Shown here one piece after another: positions 47,682 through 54,873 of a DNA stretch of 64,000 bases; position 1 is the first letter of the stretch, and each line of letters begins with the position of its first letter. The notes below the pieces were generated by a model that saw only the letters and a program-made list of their open reading frames with translations, did not search any database and was not told where the DNA came from. The position numbers were made by a program, and so were the translations under genes. This DNA comes from an uncultured Candidatus Peribacteria bacterium (GTDB lineage Bacteria > Patescibacteriota > Gracilibacteria > Peribacterales > Peribacteraceae). The stretch covers positions 57,266 through 121,265 of the forward strand of contig CAYSWB010000003.1 of NCBI GenBank assembly GCA_964434575.1, in the 5' to 3' direction.

Positions 47682-47756
47682 GCGGGTGTCGTATAATGGC
47701 TATTACCTCAGGTTTCCAACCTGATGACGCGGGTTCGATTCCCGCCACCCGCTCCA
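47682..47756 (+). tRNA. tRNA-Gly (anticodon UCC)
   Basis: 75-nt cloverleaf: GCGGGTG..GTAT-AATGGCT-A-TTAC..TCAGG-TTTCCAA-CCTGA..GCGGG-TTCGATT-CCCGC-CACCCGC-T-CCA. Confidence 0.9.
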
Positions 47757-47826
47757 GCCTGATGGCTGGAGCACGCTCGCCTGACACCGTCGCGATGAAG
47801 ATGGCACAATGTTAAGACGCCATTCG

Positions 47827-47853
47827 AAAACAGGGCTCGCGAGGCCTTTTTTT
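47827..47853 (+). terminator. possible terminator after tRNA-Gly
   Basis: Short GC stem (ggctcgcgaggcc) flanked by aaaa and 7 T. The stem is weak. Confidence 0.35.
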
Positions 47854-47928
47854 CTTACGCCCCATCCCCAACCCTTCTCAGAGGAAGGGAGCTCTGATCA
47901 GGGAAATGCGCGAGTGTATACTTGCCCC

Positions 47929-48840
47929 ATGCGCACGCCGTCCGTTTCGATCTTCATCGGCCTGCTGATCGCCGCTTCGCCCACGCTCGCCGCGCGCGAC
48001 CGAAGCATCGTCCGTCCCCCGTCGTCGAACCAGGCCGTGCAGGAACACATGAAAGGCATCGTGGTGAAGAACCCCGTGGACGGCGAGGCGCTGGAGCCCG
48101 GCACCGCGCTGACCATCGTCTTCACGACATCGGGTTTGGACACAACGCTGGAAGGCAAGGTGCTGATGATGGCAGAACTACTGAAGGACGGCACATCGCT
48201 CGGCCCGGCGCATAACCTCAGCGTTCCCCTCTTCCAGAGGGCCAACGTGCAGACGCAGAGCATCGGCGTGTCGGCGGGCAAGCATCTGTCCGGATCGTCG
48301 CTCGTATCCGCCGCAAGCGGCGGCGGCTACCGCTACCGCGTGTCCCTGTACACCGGCGACTGGAAGGCGACTCCGACCATCATCATGTCGGGCCTCAGCG
48401 GGACGTTTTCCCTGGGGGTCAAACCCGAACGGGTGGGCATCCCCGTCGTGACCGTCACGCGCCCGGTCGTCGGCGCATCGTACAAGCTCGGCGCCGGGGA
48501 GAATGTGACCTTCCAAGTGAAGAACTCGGACCCAAGCATGCACGGCCGCCTGAAGTACGCCGTGGAGCTTGTCCACAACGCCTCGAACCTGGGAACGACC
48601 CACGACCCGCGCGCGTCGTTGCTGCCCAGGCTCGGCGGAGCGAACAACCGCCTGGACGTGACGGTCGGGTCGTACGTGGACGCCAAGGCCTCGCTGAAGC
48701 GCACCGCCCCTCCGGGCTCCACCTATCAGTACCGCGTGACGGTCTACACCGGCGAATGGACCAAGTCACCCACGGTCGTTGCATCGGGTCTCAGTGCGCC
48801 GTTTACCTTAAAGCGCTACCGTCCGCGCATACAACCCTAA
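47929..48840 (+). CDS. secreted protein built from two ~125-aa tandem domains
   Basis: Start at MRTPSVSIFIGLLIAASPTLAA, with TATACT at 47917-47922 lying 6 nt upstream. The halves end ...YRYRVSLYTGDWKATPTIIMSGLSGTFSL and ...YQYRVTVYTGEWTKSPTVVASGLSAPFTL. Confidence 0.7.
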   Translation: MRTPSVSIFIGLLIAASPTLAARDRSIVRPPSSNQAVQEHMKGIVVKNPVDGEALEPGTALTIVFTTSGLDTTLEGKVLMMAELLKDGTSLGPAHNLSVPLFQRANVQTQSIGVSAGKHLSGSSLVSAASGGGYRYRVSLYTGDWKATPTIIMSGLSGTFSLGVKPERVGIPVVTVTRPVVGASYKLGAGENVTFQVKNSDPSMHGRLKYAVELVHNASNLGTTHDPRASLLPRLGGANNRLDVTVGSYVDAKASLKRTAPPGSTYQYRVTVYTGEWTKSPTVVASGLSAPFTLKRYRPRIQP

Positions 48841-48864
48841 CTTCATGCGCATCTACTGACCCTA

Positions 48865-49275
48865 GTGCGCAAGGGCCTAATCTCGGTCACACTGATACTG
48901 CTGGCGTACGGCTTGTTTGCTGGAGTTCGCATGTTCCTGCTCATTCGCAACAGTGCTGACCTGTTAGAAAAGAGTAGCCGCTACGAACGACACACCAGCA
49001 GCGGCCTGCCACGCATTCTTATCCTCGGCGACAGTACGGGTGCTGGAGCAGGTGTTGAAGATCCGAAATCCTTGATTGCGGGAAGGTTCGGCACCGACTT
49101 CTCGCAGGCGTACATTCAGAACGAAAGCGTAAATGACTGAAAAGTGGCTGACGCCTTGGAAGACTTGCCTGAAGCACAAGAAAAGAAGTTTGAGATCATC
49201 CTGCTGCAGATCGGCGCCAATGACATCATGCAGGGAGCGCATACAGATATCTCTCAACATGCAAATCATCCCTAG
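48865..49275 (+). pseudogene. SGNH/GDSL-hydrolase remnant: in-frame TGA and missing C-terminus
   Basis: Block I is ILILGDSTGAGAG, and block III is LLQIGANDI after an in-frame TGA at 49138-49140. The reading frame ends at 49275 before any block V (DxxH). GC is visibly lower than the flanks. Confidence 0.65.
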
Positions 49276-49374
49276 CTTCGCACAACGTGCATGACAAGTT
49301 TTAGCTTCGAAATTTGCAATCGAAGAAGGGCTTGAATTTTTACTCTGCCGTGGATGACATGTAGTATCGAAGCA

Positions 49375-50340
49375 ATGAAATCATTAAAGCTGCAGCCTCG
49401 CATGCGTGCCGGAATTCTGTTTCTATTATGCATCGCCATGTTGTCGGCTATCGTTTTCCTTCAGCAAAAAAATATTTTGAAAATACATGAAGGCGAATTC
49501 ACCGGAAATCTGATGGAGGAAAAAGATTGTAAGCTAGAAGTTATCGATGGATTGATTCAGCAATGCTGCAAGATCAAATACAGTCCTTATTATACTTGCC
49601 AATACTATGCCAATACCTTTGTTGAACTATGCAAGGATCAACAATTGCAGTGTCAGGTGCTGAGCATCGGCTGCATGGAAAAAGAATATGCACATTCTCT
49701 CAACACCATAGTCATAGATGGAACACTTTGTATCGTAGAGCCTCAGGGACGCGTAATCAGTTGTGATGTTGGCACACCAGAAAAATTCCAGGCAGCAGTC
49801 TGTACTGCCATGGGCTTACCAAGTCCCTGCAATTGCAAATACACACTGTCTTCTTCTCAGGAAGTCGGCGATTACTCCAGTTGCAGCATGAGCATGCCAT
49901 ATGGAAAGATTTCTTGGTCAGAGAAGCTTGCAATCTGCAATGATTGCTGCGACAAACAAGCAGATGGAGAATACTGCAAAATATTTCCACAGTGTTCGGC
50001 CTGGCAGCAGGACTGCTATGCAAGTTGTCATTCAATGTTAAATACATATGTATGCCCAAAGAAAAACGATGACGCTGTAACGCCAACTTGCGTGAAAGGA
50101 TATGTACCTAGAACGTGTGACCCTAAAACATGTAAACAAGAATACAATACCGGTTTTTGCATGAATCCTTCGGGCGGACCTTGCAAGACTATCGAGCTAA
50201 CTTGTGAAAATCCTGCAAAGAACTGTGAAAATCCTTCTGGGCCAATACTTTTGCCCAATCTAAAAACCTGTCAACAACGATGTGGTAATGACATCGAGTG
50301 TCTTAAGGGCTGTCCAAAGATTACTCCCATTACAGAGTAG
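49375..50340 (+). CDS. secreted Cys-rich protein with N-terminal transglutaminase/papain-like Cys-His-Glu core
   Basis: 321 aa from MKSLKLQPRMRAGILFLLCIAMLSAIVFL. I count 33 Cys. YTC(75)QYYANTFVELC...YAH(107)SLNTIVIDGTLCIVE(122)PQ follows the TGase-core pattern. GC is about 40% on sampled lines. TAGTAT at 49362-49367 lies 7 nt before the ATG. Confidence 0.7.
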   Translation: MKSLKLQPRMRAGILFLLCIAMLSAIVFLQQKNILKIHEGEFTGNLMEEKDCKLEVIDGLIQQCCKIKYSPYYTCQYYANTFVELCKDQQLQCQVLSIGCMEKEYAHSLNTIVIDGTLCIVEPQGRVISCDVGTPEKFQAAVCTAMGLPSPCNCKYTLSSSQEVGDYSSCSMSMPYGKISWSEKLAICNDCCDKQADGEYCKIFPQCSAWQQDCYASCHSMLNTYVCPKKNDDAVTPTCVKGYVPRTCDPKTCKQEYNTGFCMNPSGGPCKTIELTCENPAKNCENPSGPILLPNLKTCQQRCGNDIECLKGCPKITPITE

Positions 50341-50350
50341 AAAATGAGTA

Positions 50351-51109
50351 TCATGGCAGCACTTTCTCCAGCTTGGTGTCGTCGGTCATCATGATGCGCG
50401 GCAGTTTCATCAGGTCGTCTTTGGACGTCGCCCAGCGCGGGTCCATGATCGTGCCGGTCACGTAACCGGCCGTAGCGGCGTGCTCGCGCACGGTCTTGTT
50501 ATGCGCGGTGCCCGGGTATGCGATGTGCCGCACCGGCTTGCCGGTCAACTCTTCCAGCACGCGCTTGCTTTCGGTGAGCTCGGCGTCCAATCGCTTCATG
50601 TTCACGGCGGTCAGCACCGGATGCGCGATGGTATGCGACTGGATGCTCATGCCCTTGGCAACCAGATCTTTGACGCGCTCGCGGTCGATGGTCGTTTTGG
50701 TATCGAGCTTGTTGGTGATGATGTAGTACGTGGCGGTCTGTTTGCGCGCCAGCATGACCGGGAGCGCCACGTCGTACGCGGTGAGGTTGTTGTCATCGAA
50801 CGTGATGACGACCGGTTTGGCCGGGCCGGCCTGCTTGCCCTGCAGAATGGCGGCGGCCGTATCCAGGTCCACGGTCGTGTAGCCCTTGTCCACCAGCCAC
50901 TGCATCTGTTTTTCGAACGTCGCTGGCGTCACCGACATCTTCCAGCTCCAGGTGCTCTTGGCATAACCCTTGGTCGGCCGCACGTGGTGGTACACCAGGA
51001 TGGGCACCTTCACGGCCGGCACGGCGGGCACAGAGGAAGAAGCCGCGCCCTCGGCGGACGGCACGGCAAAAAGAAGGATGAACGCGAGCAGCAGGCTGAG
51101 ACGGCGCAT
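50351..51109 (-). CDS. polysaccharide deacetylase (CE4/NodB) with signal peptide
   Basis: VVITFDDNNLTAY and SHTIAHP NodB motifs. Start set at MRRLSLLLAFILLF because TACACT (51117-51122) lies 7 nt upstream. The track's GTG at 51136 is rejected. Confidence 0.85.
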   Translation of the reverse strand: MRRLSLLLAFILLFAVPSAEGAASSSVPAVPAVKVPILVYHHVRPTKGYAKSTWSWKMSVTPATFEKQMQWLVDKGYTTVDLDTAAAILQGKQAGPAKPVVITFDDNNLTAYDVALPVMLARKQTATYYIITNKLDTKTTIDRERVKDLVAKGMSIQSHTIAHPVLTAVNMKRLDAELTESKRVLEELTGKPVRHIAYPGTAHNKTVREHAATAGYVTGTIMDPRWATSKDDLMKLPRIMMTDDTKLEKVLP

Positions 51110-51176
51110 GGACGACAGTGTAGCCAAAGGCCGCACGGATTCGATTGCGCGCGGACACGACAGGTTGTTTGGAATC

Positions 51177-51204
51177 TTGCGCCGCAGAACGGATGACGCA
51201 AAAT
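51177..51204 (+). promoter_or_regulatory. promoter, leaderless type
   Basis: TTGCGC-16 nt-CAAAAT, then 6 nt, then the ATG at 51211. Confidence 0.4.
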
Positions 51205-51210
51205 ACGCCC

Positions 51211-51390
51211 ATGCGTATTCTCCTTCTGTTGTTGGTCGCGCTCGCCGTTGGCGGCGGCGTCTTTTACGTCATGAGCGGCCAGCAACAAGCAACGCTGGTG
51301 AAGGTGCAGGACAGCCAGAACTCGGCGCAGGACAAAGCCGACGCCTACAAGAAAAACCAAGAAGACATGATGAAGCAGCTGGGGCAGTAA
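51211..51390 (+). CDS. small membrane-anchored protein (59 aa)
   Basis: MRILLLLLVALAVGGGVFYVM followed by a Gln/Lys/Asp-rich tail. Confidence 0.5.
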   Translation: MRILLLLLVALAVGGGVFYVMSGQQQATLVKVQDSQNSAQDKADAYKKNQEDMMKQLGQ

Positions 51391-51962: not shown

Positions 51963-53417
51963 CTATAACGCCCCGAGATCGAGCTGGTCGGTGACGTGCA
52001 CCTGATTCACGAACTCCTGGTCGTGGCTGATGAGGATCATGCCGCCTTGGTATTCGTTCAGCGCCTCGGCGATCACCGGGATGTGGCGGAAGTTGATGTG
52101 GTTGGTCGGCTCGTCGAGGATCAGGAGGCTGGGCTTCTGCAGCACGAAGCGCGCAAAACACAGCAGGCCCTTCTGGCCTTCGGATAACGCGCCGGCCTTG
52201 GTCTGCACCTTGTCACCCGGCAGCAGGAACTTCGCGGCGGTGGCGAAGATCTCCTGATGGTTGGGCTTCTCCATGGCGGACTCCAGAATCTGGTAGGCGG
52301 TCTTGTCCAGGTCCAGTCCGGAGAAATCCTGGCGGTAGTAACCCACGTTCACGCCGGGGCCCAGCAGCGCTCCCTTTTCCTTACCCGACGCGATGGACTC
52401 CAAGAGCGTGGTCTTGCCGATGCCGTTGGGGCCGATGACGCGCACGCGCGTGCGGCGCCGGATCACCAGCTCGCGCTTCTTCTTCACCGGCTTGTGGTCC
52501 TTCATCACCGTGACGGAGCTGATTTGCACCAGCGGCTGCGAGTACTCCTGCGCCGCGATGGTGAACGACGGGATGGTCTTGTCCTCCTTGCGCACGTCGA
52601 CCATGTTCTCCTCCGCCTCTTCCACGGTGTCGCGCATCTTGCTGGCCAGTTTGCGCATCTTTCCGCCCTTGTGGGAGAAGAAGTTGATCTTGTCCTTCTG
52701 ATCCTGGATTTTGCGTTCCATCTGGGCGTTCTGGCGGTTCTCGCGCTCGATCTGCGCCTTGATCTGTTCGACCACGTCGTAGTAGTCGCCCACGAACTGC
52801 TCCACCTTCTGGATGAACGCGTCGAGGTACAACACGCCCTGGGTGAAGCTGTTTAAGAAGCCGGCGTCGTGGGAGATCACCACGCACGTCTTTTCGTACA
52901 TGATGAGGAACGACGTCAGGTGTCCGATGCCCTCGTCGTCCAAGTTGTTGGTCGGCTCGTCCAGCAGCAGGATGTCGGGCTCCTGGATGAGCGCGAATGC
53001 CAGCAGCAGGCGGGCCTTCTGGCCACCGGAGAACGCGGCGATTTTCTTGTCCAGCGGCGCCTTCAGGTTCACGGCGTCCAGCACCTTGGCGATGTGCTTG
53101 TCGATGTCGTACTTCTTTTCATCGAACGCGCCCTCGAAGAACTCGCGCACCGTCTTTTCCAGGTCGGCGGCCGGCACCACCTGGCGCGCGATGCCGATGG
53201 TCGTCCCCTTCTTGATGTGGATCTCGCCCTTCACCGGCTTCAGTTCGCCGGTCATCAGCTTGAAGATGGTGCTCTTCCCGGCGCCGTTCTGTCCCATGAT
53301 CGTGATCTTGGCGTTCTCGCGCACGGAAAAGCTCGTATCCTTCAGGATCGGCTTTTGCACGTCGTAATAGTACGACACGTCCTGGAACCGGAGAATAACG
53401 TCGCCTTGGTCTTCCAT
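51963..53417 (-). CDS. ABC-F family ATPase (two ABC domains, no TM domain)
   Basis: Start at MEDQGDVILRFQDVSYYY. Walker A GQNGAGKST and GPNGIGKTT, with signatures FSGGQKARL and LSEGQKGLL. Confidence 0.9.
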   Translation of the reverse strand: MEDQGDVILRFQDVSYYYDVQKPILKDTSFSVRENAKITIMGQNGAGKSTIFKLMTGELKPVKGEIHIKKGTTIGIARQVVPAADLEKTVREFFEGAFDEKKYDIDKHIAKVLDAVNLKAPLDKKIAAFSGGQKARLLLAFALIQEPDILLLDEPTNNLDDEGIGHLTSFLIMYEKTCVVISHDAGFLNSFTQGVLYLDAFIQKVEQFVGDYYDVVEQIKAQIERENRQNAQMERKIQDQKDKINFFSHKGGKMRKLASKMRDTVEEAEENMVDVRKEDKTIPSFTIAAQEYSQPLVQISSVTVMKDHKPVKKKRELVIRRRTRVRVIGPNGIGKTTLLESIASGKEKGALLGPGVNVGYYRQDFSGLDLDKTAYQILESAMEKPNHQEIFATAAKFLLPGDKVQTKAGALSEGQKGLLCFARFVLQKPSLLILDEPTNHINFRHIPVIAEALNEYQGGMILISHDQEFVNQVHVTDQLDLGAL

Positions 53418-53486
53418 AGTGGTAAAGCGCGGATGGGAAACCCCGCGAGGCGGCATTCTAGGGAAAAAACCCGCTGATGGGTAGGC

Positions 53487-53768: not shown

Positions 53769-54440
53769 TTACCAGAACTTCCAGCGCGGCTTCTGCAGCA
53801 TCGCCTTCACGGCGGAGAAAGCCCGGTCGATGTCCTTTTCTGGGCACAGGAACGTGAGTTCCGCGAAGCCGGTGACCAGCTGGGTGAAACCGATCCCCTT
53901 CCACGCCAGCGTTTGAAAGAAGGGATAATAGATACCGGGCTGATCCACGATGGAATGATGGAATCGGATGCTGAGCGACGCCAGGCCGTCGAAGCGCTTG
54001 ATGAGCTTCTCCCCCGCCGTAAGCTGCTTCAGCCTTTCTTCCAGGGATTCGCTGACGATGATGCCGGTGTCGACCGTACCTCGCGCCATAGAGACGATGG
54101 TGTCGTCGTCTCCGCCCGCCAGCTGCAGCAGCTTGCCCTGTATCCTGTGCAATTCGGCCGAGTTCTTGAACGCGTGCTGGACCAAGTTGGAATGCACGGT
54201 GATCCCCCGCACGACCGATGACGCATGCAGCTTGGAGCGGCCCGATGTGCTTCCTTTTTCCAATTTCTTGAGAGCCATGATGATGGCTCCCTCGGTAAAC
54301 GAGCGCGCGTGCATACTCTCCAGATCGGGCTTGAGCTTCCGGGCGACGGCGGAGTAGTTCACGATACCCTCCGACAACGCTTCGGCGAGAAACGGGGATT
54401 GGGCAAGGATGAGCTGGACGGATTCGGTGACGGTGCGCAT
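53769..54440 (-). CDS. uncharacterised protein with C-terminal ACT-like domain
   Basis: 223 aa. The last ~70 aa (LSIRFHHSIVDQPGIYYPFFQTLAWKGIGFTQLVTGFAELTFLCPEKDIDRAFSAV) look like an ACT-type ligand-binding fold. Confidence 0.5.
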   Translation of the reverse strand: MRTVTESVQLILAQSPFLAEALSEGIVNYSAVARKLKPDLESMHARSFTEGAIIMALKKLEKGSTSGRSKLHASSVVRGITVHSNLVQHAFKNSAELHRIQGKLLQLAGGDDDTIVSMARGTVDTGIIVSESLEERLKQLTAGEKLIKRFDGLASLSIRFHHSIVDQPGIYYPFFQTLAWKGIGFTQLVTGFAELTFLCPEKDIDRAFSAVKAMLQKPRWKFW

Positions 54441-54582
54441 AGGTAAAAGAAGATGATTTTAAAATAACGAAATATTCGTAAAATTACAACTTTTACTTAT
54501 AAATTTTTAAATATTTATCATTATTTTGATCTTTCAAGGCCTATGGATAATTTTTTGCCATTATTTTTTTCTCCAAATTTTT

Positions 54583-54873
54583 ATGGGATTCTTTCTTGGA
54601 CAACCTCAGGACGACTGGGATGACGAGCCAGTTCCTCCTAGTGCCGAGCAATTGCGCATCGCCTCGTTGGAGCGTGCTCTTGAAGATGTCCGTCAGACAT
54701 TGCATGCATGCGTGCATTCGCTGGCGTATCCGCACATGCTCGAAACCGTGGCAAGGTTCGGGCCCCAGCAACCCGAAGGCGTGATGCAAGGCCGCGAAAT
54801 CTTCCGGGCTCACATTGAAGCCATGCTCAAGAAGGCGGTGACACAGATCAGCACCATCTTGAATGACCGCTAA
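54583..54873 (+). CDS. hypothetical protein (96 aa)
   Basis: This is the first in-frame ATG of track ORF 54526-54873, whose TTG start lies in AT-rich DNA. Helical and acidic N-terminus. Confidence 0.45.
   Translation: MGFFLGQPQDDWDDEPVPPSAEQLRIASLERALEDVRQTLHACVHSLAYPHMLETVARFGPQQPEGVMQGREIFRAHIEAMLKKAVTQISTILNDR

What the first reader, a model, noticed from the sequence alone, without database searches (positions are those of the whole stretch)
48841..50345. Low-GC islet encoding a 33-Cys secreted protein with a transglutaminase/papain-like Cys-His-Glu core
Between a native-looking secreted protein gene and the CE4 deacetylase gene, GC drops sharply. Lines I counted around 49500 are about 40% GC, against well above 60% in the flanks. 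The main ORF (49375-50340) has a signal anchor. It then has a segment YTC(75)QYYANTFVELCKDQQLQCQVLSIGCMEKEYAH(107)SLNTIVIDGTLCIVE(122)PQG. The Cys/His/acid order and spacing (32 and 15 residues) fit the transglutaminase-core / papain-like thiol peptidase pattern. About 200 aa with many paired Cys follow (CxC, CC, CxxxC), resembling a disulfide-knotted module. I do not recognise any described family with this architecture. The composition argues for horizontal acquisition, yet the gene carries the host-style -10 (TAGTAT) 7 nt before its ATG. No integrase or direct repeats are visible.
Basis: partly seen in the sequence, partly recalled or inferred. Interest (0 to 1): 0.7.

Follow-up and report, generated by a model that had tools for sequence, protein, structure and literature searches.

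The report
Foreign cysteine-rich transglutaminase-like surface enzyme gene
A small stretch of recently imported, low-GC DNA in a Candidatus Peribacteria (CPR) genome carries an intact gene for a membrane-anchored, disulfide-rich surface protein. The protein belongs to a rare, undescribed branch of the transglutaminase-like cysteine-enzyme superfamily.

Summary
GC is 0.42 over 49246-50345 (GC3 0.41), against a window mean of 0.62 and host-gene GC3 of 0.8-0.9. The tetranucleotide z-score is 7. Four other assemblies from four runs or samples reproduce the islet, and two of them span both junctions, so it is not a chimera.

The host is a Candidatus Peribacteria bacterium. Synteny with its nearest relatives breaks at the 3' end of tRNA-Gly(UCC) and at the CE4 stop codon, so the islet lies in a strain-variable region. 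The islet is composite:
- a truncated, nonsense-mutated SGNH hydrolase pseudogene (GC 0.53);
- the low-GC gene.

The 321-aa protein has no Pfam hit, but exhaustive HMMER found 25 distant homologs. C75 and H107 are invariant, position 122 is always Glu or Asp, and H107 is the only invariant non-Cys residue. Nine homologs hit Pfam Transglut_core just under threshold. An AlphaFold model (pLDDT 86) puts C75 at a helix N-terminus and H107 and E122 on adjacent strands. Its only high-probability local Foldseek matches have the papain or transglutaminase fold.

One caveat remains. The conserved Cys count is even, so a free catalytic thiol is unproven. Substrate and donor are unknown. I rate it a new family within a known superfamily, of moderate interest.

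The parts
47682..47756 (+). tRNA-Gly(UCC). Its 3' end is the left edge of the strain-variable region.
   Evidence: ARAGORN and Rfam. The blastn alignment with relatives L008 and L009 ends at 47756 and 47763.
47809..48840 (+). Gene for a 343-aa secreted protein with native-like GC. It lies inside the variable region and is absent from the nearest relatives.
   Evidence: ORF with GC3 0.81. No Pfam hit. No tblastn hit in L008 or L009. All 8 SNPs between assemblies fall in this gene.
48865..49245 (+). SGNH/GDSL hydrolase pseudogene. Only the 5' ~55% is present, with GC 0.53. There is an in-frame TGA at 49138-49140, and similarity ends near 49245.
   Evidence: Pfam Lipase_GDSL_2 at E 1.2e-5. Homologs of 231-234 aa are 47-57% identical. 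The TGA replaces the invariant Trp of the NGWK motif, and block V is missing. GC.
49246..50345 (.). Low-GC foreign segment proper, with GC about 0.42.
   Evidence: GC step from 0.533 to 0.419 at about 49246. Tetranucleotide z = 7.0. Synteny with relatives resumes at 50355.
49362..49367 (+). TAGTAT, a -10-like box 7 nt upstream of the ATG. It suggests a leaderless transcript.
   Evidence: Position. Host genes show a sharp peak of TAnnnT ending 6 nt before the start codon, 17 of 58 genes against about 1 expected. In 42%-GC DNA a chance match in this range is about 14% likely (my own estimate).
49375..50340 (+). Gene for a 321-aa protein with 33 Cys and a transglutaminase-like core. Alternative starts are 49354 and 49402; public gene callers used 49402 and 49513.
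   Evidence: ORF. Homologs with E from 7e-55 to 5e-5. P0034 (312 aa) and P0001 (275 aa) are the same gene called with later starts.
49408..49464 (+). N-terminal hydrophobic anchor or uncleaved signal, residues 12-30.
   Evidence: Maximum Kyte-Doolittle 19-mer of 2.49 at residues 12-30. Most homologs have an equivalent hydrophobic N-terminus.
49516..49764 (+). Transglutaminase-like core, residues 48-130. C75 is at 49597-49599, H107 at 49693-49695 and E122 at 49738-49740.
   Evidence: Conservation. Pfam hits of relatives. PDB profile hit 9crn. Model secondary structure has a helix starting at C75, H107 in a strand, and E122 directly after the next strand.
49765..50049 (+). Family-specific, mainly helical, disulfide-rich subdomain, residues 131-225. 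Conserved Cys are 143, 152, 154, 170, 188, 191, 192, 214 and 218.
   Evidence: Alignment. Model helices at model residues 90-100, 136-152 and 162-175.
50050..50244 (+). C-terminal 8-Cys module, residues 226-290. It is present in 12 of the 26 family members and duplicated in P0010.
   Evidence: Cys matrix. Two tblastx hits of L031 to 50056-50244.
50351..51136 (-). Host CE4 polysaccharide deacetylase gene. Its stop codon is the right edge of the variable region.
   Evidence: Pfam Polysacc_deac_1 at E 5.8e-25. It is 90% identical to the L008 and L009 proteins through the last residue. The blastn alignment ends at 50355.

Best explanation
The interval is a composite piece of horizontally acquired DNA in a strain-variable region of a Candidatus Peribacteria genome. 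That region is bounded by tRNA-Gly(UCC) and the 3' end of a CE4 deacetylase gene.

An older, mid-GC acquisition, an SGNH hydrolase gene, has been inactivated by a Trp-to-stop mutation. It was then truncated where a very recent, un-ameliorated low-GC segment (about 49246-50345) joined it.

That segment carries one intact gene. The gene is probably transcribed as a leaderless mRNA from a host-type -10 box. Its product is tethered to the membrane by an N-terminal hydrophobic anchor and faces outward. It folds into a minimal transglutaminase/papain-type core, followed by a helical subdomain and an 8-Cys module, and up to 16 disulfides could hold it together.

The inferred mechanism is thiol-enzyme chemistry. 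Cys75 at a helix N-terminus would be activated by His107 and oriented by Glu122. It would attack amide bonds (peptide or Gln side-chain) of extracellular protein or peptide substrates. Candidates are the cell's own envelope or the surface of a partner cell, and the reaction could be hydrolysis or transamidation.

What is shown: the foreign composition, the real junctions, the variable locus, the pseudogene, family membership, conservation of the triad, and the fold layout. What is inferred: expression, topology, catalytic activity, substrate and donor.
For: **Foreign origin**
- GC, GC3, tetranucleotide and dinucleotide measures are all outliers.
- Homolog genes in nine other contigs lie within 0.10 GC of the rest of their contigs. 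Here the gap is 0.20, and 0.44 in GC3.

**Real junctions**
- Logan SRR7369912 matches 48775-50496 at 100%.
- ERZ3430527 matches 47929-50500, SRR7369911 matches 48226-50346 and SRR7369924 matches 49401-50729, at 99.8-100%.

**Host and locus**
- ABC-F is 85% and transketolase 88% identical to Candidatus Peribacteria MAGs.
- Synteny breaks at 47756 and 50355, and the relatives carry a different ~4.6 kb there, including an MFS transporter gene.

**Pseudogene**.

**Family and triad**.

**Superfamily link**
- Pfam PF01841 hits in 9 of 26 members, best 22.9 bits against a cut-off of 23.
- NCBIfam NF045980 hits in 5 of 26.
- PDB 9crn is the top profile hit.

**Structure**
- AlphaFold model with pLDDT 85.8 and pTM 0.79. 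C75 is the first residue of a helix, H107 is in a strand, and E122 directly follows the next strand.
- The high-probability local Foldseek hits are 3isr (0.97), 9crn (0.94) and MOA (0.89). Lower-probability hits include an arylamine N-acetyltransferase, vasohibin and SseI.

**Disulfide biology**
- A homolog in the closest relative's genome sits next to a DsbB gene.
- Peribacteria are reported to export many Cys-rich, strain-variable proteins and to have a disulfide-forming protein (PMC4736985).

**Promoter**.
Against: - The window protein itself has no Pfam hit, even at E = 10.
- No Foldseek match reaches E < 0.01 against PDB, and TM-scores are 0.12-0.24, because only 40-90 residues align.
- The 18 conserved core Cys include C75, and most members have an even total: 14, 18, 20, 26 or 28. 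The ectodomain here has 32. A free catalytic thiol therefore needs a second unpaired Cys. Otherwise C75 is itself in a disulfide.
- I could not read model coordinates to check predicted pairings.
- No conserved gene neighbourhood points to a substrate.
- The donor is unidentified. The best homolog is only 44% identical, and no fetched locus matches the islet's dinucleotide signature.
- The -10 box could be a chance match in AT-rich DNA.
Confidence: 0.6

Rival explanations
1. Non-catalytic surface protein. The transglutaminase-like core is a degenerate scaffold in which C75 is one of nine structural disulfide partners. The protein would then act as a rigid, disulfide-knotted adhesin or binding module, like the other Cys-rich exported proteins of Peribacteria.
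For: The conserved Cys count is even and includes C75, and totals are even in most members. Cys-rich exported proteins proposed to act in attachment are typical of Peribacteria (PMC4736985). No profile or fold match is significant for this protein.
Against: H107 is the only invariant non-Cys residue, and position 122 is always acidic across members only 21-44% identical. That is hard to explain without catalysis. C75, H107 and E122 align with the catalytic residues of 9crn and with the catalytic half of PF01841.
Confidence: 0.2
2. Assembly or binning artefact. The low-GC DNA belongs to another organism and was joined to the Peribacteria contig in error.
For: The composition step is sharp, coverage is low (an ENA contig reports cov 4.2), and read mapping was not available.
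Against: Four other assemblies from four runs or samples, made with different assemblers, reproduce the islet, and two span both junctions at 99.8-100% identity. SNPs in the flanking host gene show that these are not copies of one assembly. The left junction lies inside a pseudogene of intermediate GC rather than at a clean contig-like break.
Confidence: 0.02
3. Native gene whose odd composition reflects its amino-acid content or local mutational bias, not transfer.
For: Family genes tend to be 0.03-0.10 lower in GC than the rest of their contigs. A paralogous family member is resident in the closest relative's genome.
Against: GC3, which is largely independent of amino-acid content, is 0.41 against 0.8-0.9 in host genes. 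The non-coding 49246-49374 is also 0.42. The nearest relatives lack the gene at this locus. The window protein is only 35% identical to the relative's resident copy and closer (44%) to a protein from an unrelated contig.
Confidence: 0.05
4. Exported toxin or effector, such as a deamidase or protease. It would be released to damage competitor or host cells, rather than modify the envelope while anchored to the membrane.
For: Weak structural neighbours include effector-type papain-fold enzymes such as SseI, AvrPphB, YopQ and the MOA toxin domain. The gene sits in a horizontally exchanged variable region. One member hits Pfam 'Papain fold toxin 1, glutamine deamidase' at E 0.13.
Against: No immunity-like small gene, secretion-system gene or toxin-delivery domain is adjacent, here or in the seven distinct homolog contexts. 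The N-terminus looks like an anchor with no clear cleavage site (sequence). The structural matches are all non-significant.
Confidence: 0.12

Closest known systems
Transglutaminase-like superfamily (Pfam PF01841 Transglut_core; papain-like clan). The solved example closest by sequence profile is PDB 9crn, Streptococcus pyogenes TglA.
   Same: The order Cys ... His ... acid is the same, with spacings of 32 and 15 residues. The Cys is at a helix N-terminus, with the His and the acid on or just after successive strands. The local motif 'C-x-x-F/Y-A ... G-H-A-x-N ... V-E/D-P' parallels 'C-x-x-F-A ... H-A-W ... D-P/V-T'.
   Different: Family scores stay just under the Pfam threshold, and the window protein does not score at all. 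The third residue is mostly Glu rather than Asp. The core is embedded in about 18 conserved Cys, followed by a helical Cys-rich subdomain and an 8-Cys module not seen in described members.
CPR-C4 / vasohibin-type transglutaminase-like cysteine proteases (PDB 7OB6; PMC9108980)
   Same: A minimal transglutaminase-like cysteine-enzyme core found in CPR bacteria. The Cys-His spacing is 32 in both. Vasohibins appear among the weak Foldseek hits.
   Different: According to the paper, CPR-C4 uses a Cys-His-Leu(carbonyl) triad and is a Zn-binding homodimer. The paper's text does not mention a signal peptide or disulfides. The protein here has an acidic third residue, an N-terminal anchor and 32 ectodomain Cys.
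Cysteine-rich exported proteins of Peribacteria (Anantharaman et al. 2016, PMC4736985)
   Same: Same host class. Very high Cys content (10.3% here, 7.2% in the reported cluster), predicted export, and strain-to-strain variability.
   Different: The reported proteins are large (1655 +/- 751 aa), and no enzymatic core was assigned to most of them. This one is 321 aa, has a recognisable catalytic-type core, and is compositionally foreign.
MAG6410 family transglutaminase-related lipoproteins (NCBIfam NF045980)
   Same: Surface-tethered bacterial proteins with a transglutaminase-related core. Five of 26 family members hit this model, best E 8.3e-5.
   Different: The name indicates lipoprotein anchoring, whereas this protein has an N-terminal hydrophobic helix. 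The window protein itself does not hit the model, and I did not examine that family's Cys content.
tRNA-associated genomic islands
   Same: Strain-specific DNA begins exactly at the 3' end of a tRNA gene. Its composition is atypical and its content layered.
   Different: No integrase-like gene was recognised in the region, and there is no att-like direct repeat of the tRNA 3' end. The whole region is only 2.6 kb, and there is no match to phage or plasmid collections.

Membership tests
Transglutaminase-like superfamily (PF01841 / papain-like clan) | Sequence-profile match at or above the curated threshold | tested here: inconclusive
   The window protein has no hit, even at E = 10. Nine of 26 family members hit PF01841 positions 53-108 with 12.7-22.9 bits against a cut-off of 23, best E 5.6e-5. 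The family profile against PDB gives 9crn as top hit at E 0.09.
Transglutaminase-like superfamily (PF01841 / papain-like clan) | Conserved Cys, His and Asp/Glu in that order | tested here: met
   C75 26/26, H107 26/26, position 122 E 20 and D 6.
Transglutaminase-like superfamily (PF01841 / papain-like clan) | Nucleophile Cys at the N-terminus of a helix, with His and acid on or next to adjacent beta-strands | tested here: met
   AlphaFold model with pLDDT 85.8. The helix starts at model residue 30 (C75). Strand 61-69 contains H107. Strand 72-76 is followed directly by E122. Side-chain geometry could not be inspected.
Transglutaminase-like superfamily (PF01841 / papain-like clan) | Global or local fold match to solved members | tested here: inconclusive
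   Foldseek against PDB gives no hit with E <= 0.001. The high-probability local hits are papain or transglutaminase-fold enzymes: 3isr 0.97, 9crn 0.94, MOA 0.89. TM-scores are 0.12-0.24.
Transglutaminase-like superfamily (PF01841 / papain-like clan) | Free, reactive catalytic thiol and enzymatic activity | not testable with these tools
   The even conserved Cys count (18 including C75) leaves the redox state of C75 open.
CPR-C4 / vasohibin-type proteases | Cys-His-Leu(backbone carbonyl) triad | tested here: not met
   The third position is always Glu or Asp in this family. The CPR-C4 triad is C61/H93/L115 according to PMC9108980.
Integrase-mediated tRNA genomic island | Integrase gene and direct repeat of the tRNA 3' end at the far boundary | tested here: not met
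   No integrase-like gene was recognised in 47757-50354. Three ORFs there were scanned with Pfam and the rest were only read. No repeat of the tRNA 3' end was found.
Integrase-mediated tRNA genomic island | Strain-specific DNA abutting a tRNA gene, with atypical composition | tested here: met
   Synteny with L008 and L009 ends at 47756 and 47763 and resumes at 50355. Composition.
SGNH/GDSL hydrolase (the upstream fragment) | Blocks I (GDS), II (G), III (GxND) and V (DxxH) in an uninterrupted frame | tested here: not met
   Blocks I and III are present. The invariant Trp next to block II is replaced by TGA. Everything after residue ~126, including block V, is missing. It is therefore a pseudogene.
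Peribacteria Cys-rich exported proteins (PMC4736985) | High Cys content, export signal and strain variability | tested here: met
   10.3% Cys and an N-terminal hydrophobic segment. The gene is absent at this locus in relatives. Its size of 321 aa is far below the reported 1655 +/- 751 aa.

The most novel reading that the evidence does not exclude
The family is a disulfide-locked extracellular transamidase that Peribacteria, and perhaps other CPR episymbionts and predatory myxobacteria, use to cross-link themselves covalently to partner or prey cell surfaces, or to remodel those surfaces. On this reading it is a horizontally traded attachment factor that strains swap at a tRNA-linked variable locus.
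Probability: 0.1. Interest if true: 0.75.

Novelty: new variant of a known kind. Interest (0 to 1): 0.5.

Why it matters
How CPR bacteria such as Peribacteria attach to and exploit other cells is still largely unknown. Their Cys-rich exported proteins have been flagged as candidates, but most have no assigned biochemistry.

This gene gives one such protein a recognisable catalytic core. It also defines a rare, un-annotated family: 26 clusters among 1.84 billion representative proteins. At least one member is in Peribacteria and at least one in a myxobacterial MAG.

The case also shows that CPR genomes can take up and probably express very recently acquired foreign surface-protein genes at a tRNA-adjacent variable site. 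The protein is small enough (about 290-aa ectodomain) to be made recombinantly, so disulfide mapping and activity tests are feasible.

Tried and rejected
1. Word-seeded homology search with the protein found only itself. Repeating it with the untrimmed alignment was swamped by low-complexity linkers and returned only 2 proteins. The exhaustive phmmer run was what revealed the family.
2. phmmer against PDB gave JNK/MAPK9 hits at E about 1e-3. I rejected these as spurious, because the family profile gives no kinase hit and no kinase appears in Foldseek.
3. The single-sequence AlphaFold model was unusable, with pLDDT 45.
4. Scans of genome and viral contigs with peptides of the query found nothing.
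5. tblastn against phage and plasmid collections found no match. BFVD Foldseek found nothing significant.
6. The search for att-like direct or inverted repeats around the islet gave only short, chance-level matches.
7. Donor search by dinucleotide signature against all fetched loci gave no close match; every distance is >120, against a within-host mean of 79.
8. TGA-as-Gly recoding (code 25, as in Gracilibacteria) was considered for the in-frame TGA in the SGNH fragment. I rejected it because the codon aligns with an invariant Trp, so it is a simple TGG-to-TGA mutation.
9. A sigma-70 consensus scan found no -35/-10 pair in the islet.
10. An HMM search of six-frame translations of the window and of the 35 loci fetched up to that point found no further copy beyond the known ones.
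11. An exact-sequence look-up of the CE4 protein, meant to identify the source record, failed, probably because of a different start call. Literature searches for the run accession and for TglA found nothing.
Full report
**1. The observation**

The composition drop is real and extreme.
- In 300-nt windows, GC falls from 0.60-0.68 to 0.40-0.46 between about 49100 and 50300.
- Over the whole 64-kb window, 1-kb windows average 0.619 with sd 0.035. The minimum, 0.423, starts at 49301.
- ORF 49375-50340 has GC3 = 0.41, whereas the host ORFs have GC3 = 0.75-0.95. The deviation is therefore at the codon level and not a by-product of amino-acid content.
- The tetranucleotide distance of 49251-50250 from the window average is 7.0 sd above the mean. 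Outside windows overlapping the islet the highest z is 2.05.
- The dinucleotide relative-abundance distance to the host is 181. For 200 random 1.1-kb host windows the mean is 79 and the maximum 158.
C75, H107 and E122 are at 49597-49599, 49693-49695 and 49738-49740.

**2. It is not an assembly artefact**

The same gene product is on record in four other assemblies:
- Logan SRR7369912, equal to window 48775-50496 at 100% identity;
- ENA ERZ3430527 NODE_23917, equal to 47929-50500 at 99.8%;
- Logan SRR7369911, equal to 48226-50346 at 99.86%;
- Logan SRR7369924, equal to 49401-50729 at 100%.

Two of them span both junctions. All eight differences from the window lie in the upstream host-like gene (47983-48612). 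None lies in 48841-50345. These are therefore distinct population samples carrying an identical islet.

**3. Host and locus**

The ABC-F protein at 51963-53456(-) is 85% identical to proteins of two 'uncultured Candidatus Peribacteria bacterium' MAGs, CAYWJU01 and CAYUVW01. Their transketolase is 88% identical and their CE4 deacetylase 90%. The host is therefore a Peribacteria (Peregrinibacteria, CPR) bacterium. Complete Peribacteria genomes are reported to be about 1.25 Mb with 58.5% GC (PMC4736985).

Nucleotide alignment with both relatives runs through transketolase, YidD and tRNA-Gly(UCC). It stops at window 47756 and 47763, which is the 3' end of the tRNA. It resumes at 50355, within 5 nt of the CE4 stop codon. 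Between these anchors the relatives carry a different ~4.6 kb, which includes an MFS transporter gene and an Excalibur-domain protein gene.

The window carries three things in that space:
- a 343-aa secreted-protein gene (native-like GC, no Pfam hit, no counterpart in the relatives);
- the SGNH fragment;
- the low-GC gene.

This is a strain-variable region next to a tRNA gene. I recognised no integrase-like gene in it, and there is no att-like repeat. Phage and plasmid collections gave no match.

**4. The islet is composite**

The frame starting at 48865 encodes the first ~126 residues of an SGNH/GDSL hydrolase (Pfam Lipase_GDSL_2, E 1.2e-5). Its homologs are 231-234 aa and 47-57% identical. 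One is annotated as from Candidatus Uhrbacteria.
- The in-frame TGA at 49138-49140 replaces the invariant Trp of the 'NGWK' motif.
- The neighbouring invariant Gly is Asp.
- Similarity stops after the GANDI block, at about 49245. Block V is missing.

This is a dead, truncated gene. Its GC is 0.533, like a homolog gene in its own contig (0.532). GC steps down to 0.419 immediately after the truncation point. The simplest history is two successive acquisitions, the second of which removed the 3' part of the first. That history is an inference.

**5. What the low-GC gene encodes**

Pfam gives nothing, even at E = 10 on sub-segments. A word-seeded search of 5.8 billion clusters found only the gene itself. 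The exhaustive phmmer search of 1.84 billion representatives found 25 homologs, with E from 7e-55 to 5e-5 and 27-44% identity.

In the alignment the invariant residues are ten Cys plus H107.
- C75 is 26/26 and H107 is 26/26.
- Position 122 is Glu in 20 and Asp in 6.
- N110, P123 and F82 are nearly invariant.
- H107 is the only invariant non-Cys residue.

Three independent profile results link the family to the transglutaminase-like superfamily:
- Nine of 26 members hit Pfam PF01841 Transglut_core. In each of the six inspected individually the match was to profile positions 53-108, the Cys-His-Asp half. Scores were 12.7-22.9 bits against a gathering score of 23.
- Five members hit NCBIfam NF045980, 'transglutaminase-related lipoprotein'.
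- The family profile's best PDB hit is the transglutaminase-like protein 9crn (E 0.09). The three positions are aligned as 'vCngyAqaF...faHAwNav...gVDvt'.

With the 26-sequence alignment, AlphaFold2 gives a confident model of residues 46-300, with pLDDT 85.8 and pTM 0.79. A helix begins exactly at C75. H107 lies in the second strand after it, and E122 directly follows the third strand. That is the canonical papain/transglutaminase arrangement.

Foldseek against PDB finds no significant global match. This is expected, because only 40-90 of 255 residues are core.
- The high-probability local matches are papain/transglutaminase-fold enzymes: 3isr at 0.97, 9crn at 0.94 and the MOA protease domain at 0.89.
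- Lower-probability matches are also thiol enzymes of that fold: arylamine N-acetyltransferase, vasohibins, SseI, Josephin and AvrPphB.

I conclude that the protein is a divergent member of that superfamily. Formal thresholds are not met by the window protein itself.

**6. Architecture**

The protein has four parts:
- an N-terminal hydrophobic anchor, residues 12-30, with equivalents in most homologs;
- the core, residues 48-130;
- a mainly helical subdomain, residues 131-225, with conserved Cys at 143, 152, 154, 170, 188, 191, 192, 214 and 218;
- an 8-Cys module, residues 226-290, present in 12 of the 26 members and duplicated in P0010.

Co-loss of Cys columns identifies two disulfides, 52-65 and 119-130.

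The main caveat comes from the Cys count. The core has 18 conserved Cys including C75, and most members have even totals. The ectodomain here has 32. Either C75 and one other Cys are both free, or C75 is itself disulfide-bonded, either permanently or as a redox switch. I could not read model coordinates to decide.

**7. Distribution and context**

P0010 is 35% identical and is encoded on CAYWJU010000007.1. That is the same MAG as the closest relative of the host. It sits beside a DsbB gene (Pfam E 7e-12), an FG-GAP/CLIPPER protein and an SLH protein. Its GC is 0.52 in a 0.57 contig. The family is therefore resident in Peribacteria.

The window's copy is not the ortholog of that resident gene. 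It is closer to P0002, at 44%, which comes from an unrelated contig.

A distant subfamily includes a protein from a Hyalangium sp. (Myxococcota) MAG.

Homolog genes in nine other contigs have GC within 0.10 of the rest of their contigs. Their neighbourhoods differ (thymidylate kinase/FolD/MgtE, S15/PNPase, HD/M23, BlaR1/ankyrin), so no operon partner suggests a substrate.

Every homolog that carries a source name is called 'hypothetical protein', and most have no name at all.

**8. Expression**

Seventeen of 58 host genes have a TAnnnT box ending 5-10 nt before the start codon, with a sharp peak at 6 nt. About 1 is expected from background. That pattern suggests widespread leaderless transcription.

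The foreign gene has TAGTAT ending 7 nt before ATG 49375. In 42%-GC DNA, however, such a match within that range has roughly a 14% chance (my estimate). Public gene callers chose later starts, M10 or M47.

**9. Mechanism**

Shown:
- foreign composition;
- real junctions;
- a tRNA-adjacent variable locus;
- a truncated pseudogene at the left junction;
- an intact gene of a small family with a conserved Cys-His-Glu/Asp set in a transglutaminase-type layout.

Inferred:
- The protein is exported and stays anchored.
- It is oxidised by the host Dsb system.
- It uses C75, H107 and E122 to attack amide bonds of extracellular proteins or peptides, by hydrolysis or transamidation, on its own envelope or on a partner cell.

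I put about 0.6 on an active thiol enzyme and about 0.2 on a non-catalytic adhesin-like scaffold. The rest goes to effector-type roles. I put more than 0.9 on recent horizontal acquisition. The donor is unknown. Low-GC lineages (0.38-0.39) do exist within the Peribacteria/Peregrinibacteria loci I fetched, so a within-phylum donor is plausible but untested.

**10. Comparison with known families, and novelty**

It works like a transglutaminase-like or papain-clan thiol enzyme. At the level of defining residues and layout it is a member of that superfamily, but it belongs to no described family.

It differs from the one characterised CPR transglutaminase-like protease, CPR-C4. That enzyme uses Cys-His-Leu(carbonyl) and is a Zn-binding homodimer, and the paper's text does not mention a signal peptide or disulfides (PMC9108980).

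It fits the reported Peribacteria theme of Cys-rich, strain-variable exported proteins (PMC4736985). Two things are new here: a catalytic-type core, and evidence that such a gene is exchanged horizontally.

It is a new family-level variant of a known superfamily, sitting in a small foreign islet. Interest is moderate.

Noticed in passing
whole window (58 host genes), e.g. 16100 (-), 23692 (+), 43656 (-), 58401 (-): Many host genes have a TAnnnT box ending about 6 nt before the start codon: 17 of 58 within 5-10 nt, where about 1 is expected. This suggests widespread leaderless mRNAs in this Peribacteria genome.
   Followed up: partly
upstream of e.g. 4393 (+), 8231 (-), 8743 (-), 12855 (+), 28612 (+), 36107 (+): Genes that do have a leader often carry pyrimidine or C-rich tracts (CCCC, CCTCC, TTCCC) just before the start codon, 14 of 58 genes. 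Purine-rich Shine-Dalgarno-like motifs appear in only 9 of 58. No background expectation was computed and the pattern is unexplained.
   Followed up: partly
47809-48840 (+): A 343-aa secreted protein, built by eye from two similar halves (each ending in a '...Y-x-Y-R-V-x-x-Y-T-G-x-W ... S-G-L-S-x-x-F-x-L' stretch). It has no Pfam hit and no counterpart in the two nearest Peribacteria relatives. All 8 SNPs between the independent assemblies fall in this gene.
   Followed up: partly
L031 10001-12486 (CAYWJU010000007.1): In the closest relative's genome a family member (P0010, 516 aa) has the C-terminal 8-Cys module twice and extra N-terminal Cys-rich repeats. It lies directly upstream of a DsbB gene and near FG-GAP/CLIPPER and SLH-domain protein genes.
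   Followed up: partly
P0015 cluster (P0037 = HVG58869.1): A distant branch of the family, lacking the C-terminal module, includes a protein from a Hyalangium sp. (Myxococcota) MAG. The family is therefore not confined to CPR bacteria.
   Followed up: no
54441-54583: This is the second GC dip of the window (GC 0.40 in 54350-54649). It is an AT-rich intergenic stretch upstream of the gene at 53769-54440 (-). There was no Rfam hit and it looks ordinary.
   Followed up: partly
51145-51390 (+) versus L008 15372-15496: A small ORF lying between CE4 and the next gene in the window has its only counterpart on the other side of CE4 in relatives L008 and L009, inside their variable region. This points to local rearrangement around the CE4 gene.
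   Followed up: no
49304-49325: A short inverted repeat, CTTCGA-N9-TCGAAG, lies between the SGNH truncation point and the -10 box of the foreign gene. It is not a canonical terminator and its significance is unknown.
   Followed up: no
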